A stretch of DNA of 64,000 nucleotides from Escherichia coli (GTDB lineage Bacteria > Pseudomonadota > Gammaproteobacteria > Enterobacterales > Enterobacteriaceae), in assembly GCF_050920415.1 (NCBI RefSeq), contig NZ_CP169309.1; one strand, written 5' to 3'. Positions 18,330-18,560 of this stretch are shown in pieces. Made by a program: the position numbers and the translations under genes. Every line of letters starts with the position of its first letter. Position 1 is the first letter of the stretch. The notes under the pieces were generated by a model. That model did not search any database and had not been told where the DNA came from. It saw nothing but the letters and a program-made list of their open reading frames with translations.

Positions 18330-18560
18330 CTGCGTGCTCAGAGTTACCACTTCAGCGCATAACCGTGGCAGCAGGCCCGGACAGAACAAACGGCTCAGGA
18401 CATTATCGGTAGGGGACGTACTGGTAGTCTGTAAACTAAACCGACTGGGGCGCAGTATGCGGCATCTTGCCGTGCTGTTGGAGGAGCTGTGAGAACGTGG
18501 TATTAACTTTCGTGCTCTGACTCTACCAATATTTGCCCAACAATGGGGGGACGAAAGCTG
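18330..18560 (+). pseudogene. Remnant of a Pin/Gin-family DNA invertase gene
   Basis: Nucleotide similarity to the intact prophage invertase at 52561..53127 (e.g. ggggcgcagtatgcggcatcttg shared, encoding LGRSMRHL), but interrupted by stops and truncated at both ends. Confidence 0.55.

What the first reader, a model, noticed from the sequence alone, without database searches (positions are those of the whole stretch)
18330..18560. Invertase pseudogene next to ileY is a relative of the prophage invertase 34 kb away
The remnant shares stretches of near-identity with the intact pin at 52561-53127, indicating that an invertase-carrying element once sat at ileY. Two related recombinase sequences in one region could also mediate rearrangements.
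Basis: seen in the sequence. Interest (0 to 1): 0.35.

Follow-up and report, generated by a model that had tools for sequence, protein, structure and literature searches.

The report
Dead invertase scrap (pinH) near ileY
This is the known E. coli pseudogene pinH, a 150-base internal scrap of a phage-type DNA invertase gene joined to a scrap of an IS3 transposase gene; it is non-functional, evolving neutrally and not specially related to the intact prophage invertase 34 kb away, so it is ordinary.

Summary
The similarity is real, but narrower and weaker than the finding says. Only 18372-18521 (150 nt, codons 42-91 of a ~184-codon Pin/Gin-type invertase) is invertase-derived. It matches the window's pin at 74% over 141 nt (E 7e-23), with a single 24-nt identical run. 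It is closer to e14-type pinE (82-83%) and to several other phage invertases, so the neighbouring pin is only a family-level relative.

The left part of the reported interval (18283-18377) is an internal fragment of an IS3-family transposase gene. From 18559 onward the DNA is the upstream module of the autotransporter gene ypjA, which has a paralogue near minE.

The locus is K-12 pseudogene pinH (b2648). PGAP annotates it as an incomplete recombinase. About 3,000 of 5,426 complete E. coli genomes carry it with the same junctions. Seven alleles vary evenly across codon positions, which indicates neutral decay.

The relic lacks the catalytic serine, the C-terminal part of the catalytic domain, the DNA-binding domain and any crossover site. 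It lies outside the ssrA-integrated P2-like prophage that carries pin.

No ileY or ssrA attachment repeat supports an element integrated at ileY. The whole ygaQ-ileY-ypjCB-pinH-ypjA block is itself accessory. Rearrangement between the two invertase sequences is implausible, and no hybrid was seen. Already known; low interest.

The parts
15721..15796 (+). tRNA gene with anticodon CAT, equivalent to ileY (tRNA-Ile2); landmark 2.6 kb upstream of the relic
   Evidence: ARAGORN; Rfam tRNA 73.8 bits; annotated tRNA-Ile / ileY in related genomes and in K-12
16548..18002 (+). ypjCB (DUF5507 + DUF5508), an intact 484-aa gene lying between ileY and the relic
   Evidence: ORF list; Pfam E 3e-75 and 3e-142; PGAP name YpjCB
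18283..18377 (+). Internal fragment of an IS3-family transposase gene (nt 466-561 of the 1163-nt IS3 orfAB), with stops and frame breaks. It forms the left boundary of the invertase scrap; six bases (CAGGCC, 18372-18377) fall inside both the IS3 and the invertase alignments
   Evidence: 81% over 97 nt to IS3, E 2e-19; many IS3 hits in E. coli genomes; the K-12 allele reads [22 protein letters not shown] against IS3 [22 protein letters not shown]
18372..18521 (+). The invertase relic proper (pinH): codons 42-91 of a Pin/Gin-type serine invertase, with a TGA stop at 18490-18492 in this allele
   Evidence: 83% to pinE over 150 nt, E 2e-41; table of identities; Pfam Resolvase positions 49-100 of 145, E 4.8e-10; Gin structures 3UJ3/4M6F residues 42-91, E 1.4e-13
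18522..18558 (+). 37 nt of unassigned sequence. It may be further decayed invertase DNA (weak collinear match to Fels-2 at about nt 284-303) but this is not significant
   Evidence: Local alignments no better than shuffled controls
18559..18909 (+). Upstream module of the autotransporter gene ypjA, paralogous to the ymgJ-ycgI locus near minE. It forms the right boundary of the relic. The K-12 pinH annotation reads through into it (to 18600)
   Evidence: 313/351 (89%) identity to BL21 locus L017 3501-3850; K-12 pinH maps to 18361-18600
52561..53127 (+). Intact pin of the P2-like prophage (the comparator): 188 aa, Ser in the GYVRVSTNDQ motif, Resolvase + HTH_7
50665..52505 (.). Putative invertible tail-fibre segment served by the intact pin, bounded by 26-bp crossover-type sites at 50665-50690 and 52480-52505. 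These are the only such sites in the window
   Evidence: tail-fibre and assembly ORFs in both orientations

Best explanation
The feature is the pinH pseudogene, a non-functional and neutrally decaying composite relic. A 150-nt internal piece of a Pin/Gin-family (e14-pinE-like) serine invertase gene (18372-18521) is joined on its left to a 95-nt internal piece of an IS3-family transposase gene (18283-18377). On its right it is cut off within about 40 nt of the start of the ypjA autotransporter upstream module (18559).

Inferred history: an invertase gene arrived on mobile DNA, most likely phage-derived. An IS3-family element landed in or beside it. Deletions that joined IS-internal to invertase-internal sequence then removed codons 1-41, codons 92 to the end, and whatever else the element carried. 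This happened once, before the E. coli lineages that carry it diverged.

The relic does nothing now. It cannot encode a recombinase, has no crossover site, and is too short and too diverged to recombine appreciably with the prophage pin.
For: Shown:
- Homology limits and identities.
- Only the middle third of the catalytic domain survives: Pfam positions 49-100 of 145 and Gin residues 42-91. The Ser-10 region and HTH_7 are therefore absent.
- The IS3 fragment is in a different reading frame from the invertase piece, and this allele has an in-frame TGA.
- The locus maps to K-12 pinH b2648, annotated as a pseudogene. PGAP annotates it as 'recombinase family protein, incomplete, missing N- and C-terminus'.
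- Seven alleles share identical junctions and have no indels. Variable sites are spread 8:10:9 over codon positions. 18% of sites vary in both relic pieces, against 6-8% in the flanks.
- The full relic is present in about 3,003-3,010 of 5,426 complete genomes.
- There are no crossover-type sites near it and no Rfam family.
- The genome-reduced strain DGF-298 lacks the whole intA-pinH-ileY-ygaQ block (PMC10652928).

Inferred: the order of events (IS insertion, then deletions).
Against: No expression or phenotype data were examined, so a regulatory side-effect on ypjA, 420 nt downstream on the same strand, is not excluded. K-12-type alleles keep a 79-codon open frame, although it begins in out-of-frame IS3 sequence and ends in the ypjA upstream module. 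The source element cannot be identified, because no other phage-derived sequence survives next to the relic.
Confidence: 0.9

Rival explanations
1. The relic and the prophage pin are specially related: the relic is left over from an earlier copy of the same P2-like, ssrA-integrating phage lineage that now sits 34 kb away.
For: Both lie in the ileY-ssrA accessory interval on the same strand. P2-like phages carrying invertases use ssrA here, and islands can build up in tandem at one attachment site.
Against: The window pin is among the more distant family members: 74% identity, against 82-83% for e14-type pinE, and at most 80% against at most 90% for the inferred ancestor. No degenerate ssrA repeat occurs at the block edges or near the relic. 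No other P2-like sequence adjoins the relic.
Confidence: 0.04
2. The relic is what remains of a Hin-like promoter-inversion switch that once phase-varied the adhesin autotransporter YpjA/EhaD. The layout matches: invertase gene upstream of, and on the same strand as, the surface-protein gene, as with hin and fljB.
For: The relic is 420 nt upstream of the ypjA start (18940) on the same strand. From memory and untested here: Salmonella hin-fljBA lies in the corresponding ssrA-to-csiD/gab interval.
Against: The ypjA upstream module (18559-18909) occurs at 89% identity at the ymgJ-ycgI locus with no invertase beside it, and its homology starts only after the relic ends. No hix/gix/pix-like site exists anywhere near it. 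The relic's nearest relatives are tail-fibre invertases.
Confidence: 0.03
3. The relic has been recruited for a function, for example as a small protein or as part of the ypjA 5' regulatory region.
For: It is retained with identical junctions in about 55% of complete E. coli genomes. K-12-type alleles have an open 79-codon frame.
Against: Variation is spread evenly over codon positions, and premature stops occur at different places in different alleles. Variability is higher than in the flanks. The whole block is dispensable and is absent from LF82.
Confidence: 0.03
4. The resemblance to pin is a short chance match.
For: None beyond the shortness of the segment.
Against: E 7e-23 to the window pin, E 2e-41 to pinE, Pfam E 4.8e-10 and PDB Gin E 1.4e-13.
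Confidence: 0.002

Closest known systems
E. coli K-12 pinH (b2648), annotated as a pseudogene and lying between ypjA and ypjB
   Same: Same locus, same neighbours (ileY, ypjC/ypjB, ypjA) and same junctions. 216/240 (90%) identity; it maps to window 18361-18600.
   Different: This allele belongs to a rarer haplotype: only 11-14 of 5,426 genomes are at least 99% identical. It carries a TGA inside the fragment. The K-12 annotation spans out-of-frame IS3 sequence at its 5' end and ypjA-module sequence at its 3' end, so only about 150 of its 240 nt are invertase-derived. The name is also used for an unrelated intact invertase of prophage CP-933H in O157:H7.
PinE of cryptic prophage e14 and e14-type pinE on phage-like plasmids (Pin/Gin/Cin/Hin family of serine DNA invertases)
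   Same: Closest intact relatives: 82-83% nucleotide identity over codons 42-91. The fragment aligns residue for residue with Gin 42-91.
   Different: PinE is a complete 184-aa enzyme placed next to an invertible tail-fibre segment. The relic has no N-terminus, no C-terminal half, no sites and no tail-fibre genes.
Intact pin of the P2-like ssrA prophage in this window (52561-53127)
   Same: Same protein family and same strand; 74% identity over 141 nt; one 24-nt identical run.
   Different: It is complete, with Resolvase + HTH_7 domains and flanking 26-bp sites. It lies inside a prophage bounded by ssrA repeats. It is a more distant relative of the relic than e14 pinE, vB_EcoM-606R2, P2(T22) or Fels-2.

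Membership tests
Pin/Gin/Cin/Hin serine DNA invertases (functional member) | N-terminal catalytic serine (Ser-9/10 in the G-Y-x-R-V-S motif) | tested here: not met
   Homology starts at codon 42. Upstream DNA is IS3-derived.
Pin/Gin/Cin/Hin serine DNA invertases (functional member) | Complete resolvase-type catalytic domain (PF00239) | tested here: not met
   Only profile positions 49-100 of 145 are matched.
Pin/Gin/Cin/Hin serine DNA invertases (functional member) | C-terminal helix-turn-helix DNA-binding domain (PF02796) | tested here: not met
   No Pfam hit. No invertase similarity 3' of 18521 beyond chance.
Pin/Gin/Cin/Hin serine DNA invertases (functional member) | Pair of inverted 26-bp crossover sites flanking an invertible segment next to the gene | tested here: not met
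   A consensus scan with up to 3 mismatches finds only 50665-50690 and 52480-52505, beside the intact pin.
Pin/Gin/Cin/Hin serine DNA invertases (functional member) | Fis-dependent recombinational enhancer in the 5' part of the gene | not tested
   The 5' 122 nt of the gene are missing. From memory, the enhancer lies there in hin, gin and cin. No Fis-site model was run.
Pseudogene derived from a Pin/Gin-type invertase gene (pinH) | Significant nucleotide and protein homology to invertase genes, collinear and ungapped | tested here: met
   E 2e-41 to pinE and E 7e-23 to the window pin; Gin E 1.4e-13.
Pseudogene derived from a Pin/Gin-type invertase gene (pinH) | Orthologous position to K-12 b2648 | tested here: met
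   Same gene order ileY-ypjC/B-pinH-ypjA, with 90% identity.
Pseudogene derived from a Pin/Gin-type invertase gene (pinH) | No purifying selection on the reading frame | tested here: met
   Variable sites fall 8:10:9 over codon positions in 7 alleles, with stops at different places. The sample is small.
tRNA-integrated genomic island or prophage at ileY | Direct repeat of the tRNA 3' end at the far boundary | tested here: not met
   The 19-nt and 30-nt ileY 3' ends occur only once in the window, allowing up to 3 mismatches.
tRNA-integrated genomic island or prophage at ileY | Integrase gene next to the tRNA | tested here: not met
   Nothing annotated between ileY and ypjCB in related genomes. 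The only recombinase-like sequence is the serine-invertase scrap.
tRNA-integrated genomic island or prophage at ileY | The tRNA gene belongs to the conserved backbone while the island is variable | tested here: not met
   In LF82 the tRNA is missing together with ygaQ, ypjCB, pinH and ypjA (window 12773-24954).

The most novel reading that the evidence does not exclude
The relic could mark a lost Hin-like, invertase-driven phase switch for the YpjA/EhaD adhesin. That would make it a counterpart, in the same ssrA-to-glaH interval, of the Salmonella hin-fljBA switch. The Salmonella location is recalled from memory and was not tested. The evidence does not formally exclude this, but the ypjA upstream module exists elsewhere without any invertase, and no crossover site survives.
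Probability: 0.03. Interest if true: 0.4.

Novelty: already known. Interest (0 to 1): 0.07.

Why it matters
It matters little. The relic is annotated in K-12 as pinH and in RefSeq genomes as an incomplete recombinase.

The useful results are corrections of detail:
- Only about 150 of the 240 nt annotated as pinH come from an invertase gene. The rest is an IS3 transposase fragment and ypjA upstream sequence.
- Its nearest relatives are e14-type pinE genes, not the neighbouring prophage's pin.
- The tRNA gene ileY is itself part of a roughly 11-kb accessory block, so the relic is no evidence for integration at ileY.

The relic could serve as a neutral marker for haplotypes of this block.

Tried and rejected
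- A scan of one genome per species with YpjCB, meant to find the block or an intact invertase in other species, returned one short, probably contaminant MAG contig.
- A search for a repeat of the ileY 3' end found none.
- A search for degenerate ssrA attachment copies at the block edges and near the relic scored no better than shuffles.
- Extending invertase homology 3' of 18521 by gapped local alignment to five invertases was not significant.
- An Rfam scan of 15000-21000 found only the tRNA.
- A crossover-site consensus scan found sites only beside the intact pin.
- Alignment to Rac pinR, Qin pinQ and Mu gin: pinR and pinQ gave no BLASTN hit at E 1e-3. Mu gin gave none either and is 57% identical in register.
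- A chimeric pinH::pin query to detect recombinant junctions was imperfectly designed, because intact pins alone cover 83% of it. No match covering the IS3 part plus the pin 3' part ranked above them.
- A literature search for pinH found only a gene list and a name clash with the CP-933H invertase.

Full report
**Setting**

The window is an Escherichia coli-type chromosome segment. It runs from the gab/glaH region through a tRNA gene with anticodon CAT at 15721-15796 (+), equivalent to ileY, to the tmRNA gene ssrA at 61027-61389 (-). Its exact genome is not among the 5,426 complete E. coli genomes searched; the best local match is 99.9% over 901 nt.

Related annotated genomes give the gene order glaH, ygaQ (alpha-amylase family), tRNA-Ile, ypjCB, 'recombinase family protein (incomplete)', a small hypothetical ORF, ypjA/EhaD autotransporter, and then an element integrated at ssrA. 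In K-12 the same position holds ypjA, pinH (b2648, pseudogene), ypjB, ypjC and ileY.

**Checking the observation**

BLASTN of 18000-18900 against 52400-53300 gives one significant alignment. It pairs 18372-18512 with 52683-52823 at 105/141 identical (74%), ungapped, on the same strand, with E 7e-23. All other matches are 9-20 nt with E above 1.

The longest identical run is 24 nt, 18446-18469 against 52757-52780. The relationship is therefore real and far beyond chance, but it is one short core of identity inside 74% similarity, not several stretches of near-identity.

The gene at 52561-53127 is intact. It encodes 188 aa, with Resolvase domain E 2e-53 and HTH_7 E 1e-15.

**What the interval actually contains**

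A sensitive search of 18300-18600 against E. coli genomes showed that the first 78 bases hit IS3-family transposase genes, while bases 73-222 hit invertase genes. Local alignments fix three pieces:

- **IS3 fragment.** 18283-18377 is 81% identical (79/97, E 2e-19) to nt 466-561 of the IS3 orfAB coding sequence. The K-12 allele still reads [22 protein letters not shown] against IS3 [22 protein letters not shown].
- **Invertase fragment.** 18372-18521 is 83% identical (125/150, E 2e-41) to nt 123-272 of an e14-type pinE. The IS3 and invertase alignments overlap by six bases (CAGGCC). The two pieces are in different reading frames.
- **Downstream sequence.** Gapped local alignments of 18522-18660 to five invertase genes score no better than shuffled sequence. 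From 18559 to 18909 the DNA is 89% identical (313/351) to the region upstream of the autotransporter pseudogene beside ymgJ, near minE. That stretch is the 5' module of ypjA and not invertase DNA.

K-12's 240-nt pinH annotation maps to 18361-18600 at 90% identity. It therefore includes a few out-of-frame IS3 codons at its start and ypjA-module sequence at its end. Only about 150 nt are invertase-derived.

**Family and state**

The translated fragment (RPGQNKRLRTLSVGDVLVVCKLNRLGRSMRHLAVLLEEL*ERGINFRALT) matches Pfam Resolvase positions 49-100 of 145 (E 4.8e-10). It also matches residues 42-91 of the solved Gin invertase (3UJ3, 4M6F; E 1.4e-13), far better than gamma-delta or Tn3 resolvases (E about 1e-3).

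The catalytic serine region, the rest of the catalytic domain and the DNA-binding domain are all missing. This allele also carries an in-frame TGA.

A consensus scan for 26-bp Pin/Hin/Gin-type crossover sites, allowing three mismatches, finds only two sites in the whole window. They are 50665-50690 and 52480-52505, in inverted orientation around a 1.8-kb tail-fibre segment beside the intact pin. Nothing similar lies near the relic. No Rfam family is present there.

**Is the neighbouring pin a special relative?**

No. BLASTN identities to the relic:

| Invertase gene | Identity to relic |
|---|---|
| e14-type pinE on a phage-like plasmid | 83.3% |
| K-12 e14 pinE | 81.9% |
| phage vB_EcoM-606R2 | 81.6% |
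| P2 (T22) | 78.7% |
| Fels-2 | 76.4% |
| window pin | 74.5% |

Mu gin gave no BLASTN hit and is 56.7% identical in register. Rac pinR and Qin pinQ gave no hit. The intact genes are 76-93% identical to each other in this segment.

I also accepted any state seen in seven pinH alleles as possibly ancestral. On that basis the ancestor was at most 90% identical to pinE and at most 80% identical to the window pin.

Searches of the phage and plasmid collections found nothing closer than about 84% apart from orthologous pinH copies.

The relic also lies outside the prophage. The P2-like element carrying pin is bounded by perfect 46-nt repeats of the ssrA 3' end at 25105-25150 and 61026-61071, and ypjA lies between that boundary and the relic.

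**Age and selection**

The full relic, with both pieces, occurs in about 3,003-3,010 of 5,426 complete genomes. In the remainder, the best match to the intergenic query is only the paralogous ymgJ module.

Seven alleles from diverse strains (K-12, O157:H7, ETEC and others) have identical junctions and no indels, so the rearrangements happened once. Among these alleles:

- 18% of sites vary in each relic piece, against 6-8% in the immediate flanks.
- In the invertase piece the variable sites fall 8:10:9 on codon positions 1, 2 and 3.
- Stops occur at different places in different alleles.

This is the pattern of neutral decay. The sample is small.

**Did an element sit at ileY?**

An invertase gene was certainly once here and must have come on mobile DNA. 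The low G+C content of 12,400-19,000 (30-44%) fits acquired DNA.

Nothing ties it to integration at ileY:

- The ileY 3' end is not repeated anywhere in the window.
- No integrase lies beside the tRNA.
- ypjCB separates the tRNA from the relic.
- In strain LF82 the whole stretch 12773-24954 (ygaQ, ileY, ypjCB, relic, ypjA) is replaced by 334 nt.

The tRNA gene is therefore part of the variable block and not a fixed landmark into which something inserted. A degenerate ssrA repeat, which would point to an older ssrA-integrated element, was also not found. The genome-reduced strain DGF-298 lacks the entire block (PMC10652928).

**Could the two sequences cause rearrangements?**

This is very unlikely.

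- They are in direct orientation, so homologous exchange would delete 34 kb and would not invert anything.
- Identity is 74%, with at most 24 identical bases. From my own knowledge, not tested here, that is at the lower limit for RecA-dependent exchange, and mismatches depress it further.
- The relic encodes no enzyme, and there is no site on which the intact Pin could act.
- A chimeric query joining the IS3 piece and relic 5' part to the pin 3' part found no place covering the whole query among 5,426 genomes. All top-ranked matches were intact pins covering only the invertase portion. This test is imperfect but would have ranked a true hybrid first.

**Mechanism, shown and inferred**

Shown: the composite anatomy, the loss of all functional determinants, the single origin and the neutral variation.

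Inferred: an IS3-family element inserted in or next to an e14-like invertase gene. Deletions then joined internal IS sequence to internal invertase sequence and trimmed the 3' side down to the edge of the ypjA module.

**Alternative considered**

I considered whether the relic is the remains of a Hin-like switch for ypjA, because it sits 420 nt upstream on the same strand. Three observations argue against it. The ypjA upstream module exists at another locus without any invertase. Its homology begins only after the relic ends. The relic's relatives all serve tail-fibre inversion. It cannot be formally excluded without other species' chromosomes.

**Verdict**

The feature is the already annotated pinH pseudogene. 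It is ordinary and of low interest.

Noticed in passing
window 18283-18377: An internal fragment of an IS3-family transposase gene is fused directly to the invertase scrap. The K-12 pinH annotation starts inside it, in the wrong frame.
   Followed up: yes
window 18559-18909; L017 3501-3850: The 351 nt upstream of ypjA are 89% identical to the ymgJ / autotransporter-pseudogene (ycgI) locus near minE. The two autotransporter loci share a 5' module that contains small ORFs.
   Followed up: partly
window 19028-20356: An IS2 copy is inserted about 29 codons into ypjA, with an apparent 5-bp target duplication GCGGC (19023-19027 and 20357-20361). ypjA is further broken by a frame change near 24229-24235.
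   Followed up: partly
window 12773-24954; L015: The whole block ygaQ-ileY-ypjCB-pinH-ypjA (12.2 kb including IS2) is absent from strain LF82, where 334 nt take its place. The tRNA-Ile(CAU) gene ileY is therefore accessory in E. coli. About 45% of complete genomes lack the full relic.
   Followed up: partly
window 25105-25150 and 61026-61071: Perfect 46-nt direct repeats of the ssrA 3' end bound a 35.9-kb P2-like prophage. A GapS1-family gene (25283-26803, named from the annotation of a related genome) sits between the distal repeat and the integrase gene (26816-27829).
   Followed up: partly
window 50665-52505: A putative invertible tail-fibre segment has 26-bp crossover-type sites (TTCTCGCATACCTTGGTTTGGGGGAA and TTCTCCCAAACCAACGTTTATGAAAA) in inverted orientation. 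One lies inside the tail-fibre gene 49629-51026 and the other just upstream of pin.
   Followed up: partly
window 16548-18002: ypjCB is a single intact 484-aa gene here (DUF5507 + DUF5508, about 33% G+C), whereas K-12 has it split into ypjC and ypjB. Its function is unknown.
   Followed up: no
window 18250-18620; loci L002, L003, L013, L019-L021: There are two deep haplotypes of the relic region, about 10% apart. The window's haplotype is rare: 11-14 of 5,426 genomes are at least 99% identical. Both relic pieces are more polymorphic (18% variable sites) than their flanks (6-8%).
   Followed up: partly
L014 (DEQI01000374.1): A 2.8-kb contig of a 'Planococcaceae' metagenome-assembled genome encodes a YpjCB relative at 73% identity. 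It is probably a misbinned enterobacterial contig.
   Followed up: no
literature (PMC3936929): The name PinH is also used for the intact 22-kDa invertase of O157:H7 prophage CP-933H. That is a different gene from the K-12 pinH pseudogene, so the names can be confused.
   Followed up: no
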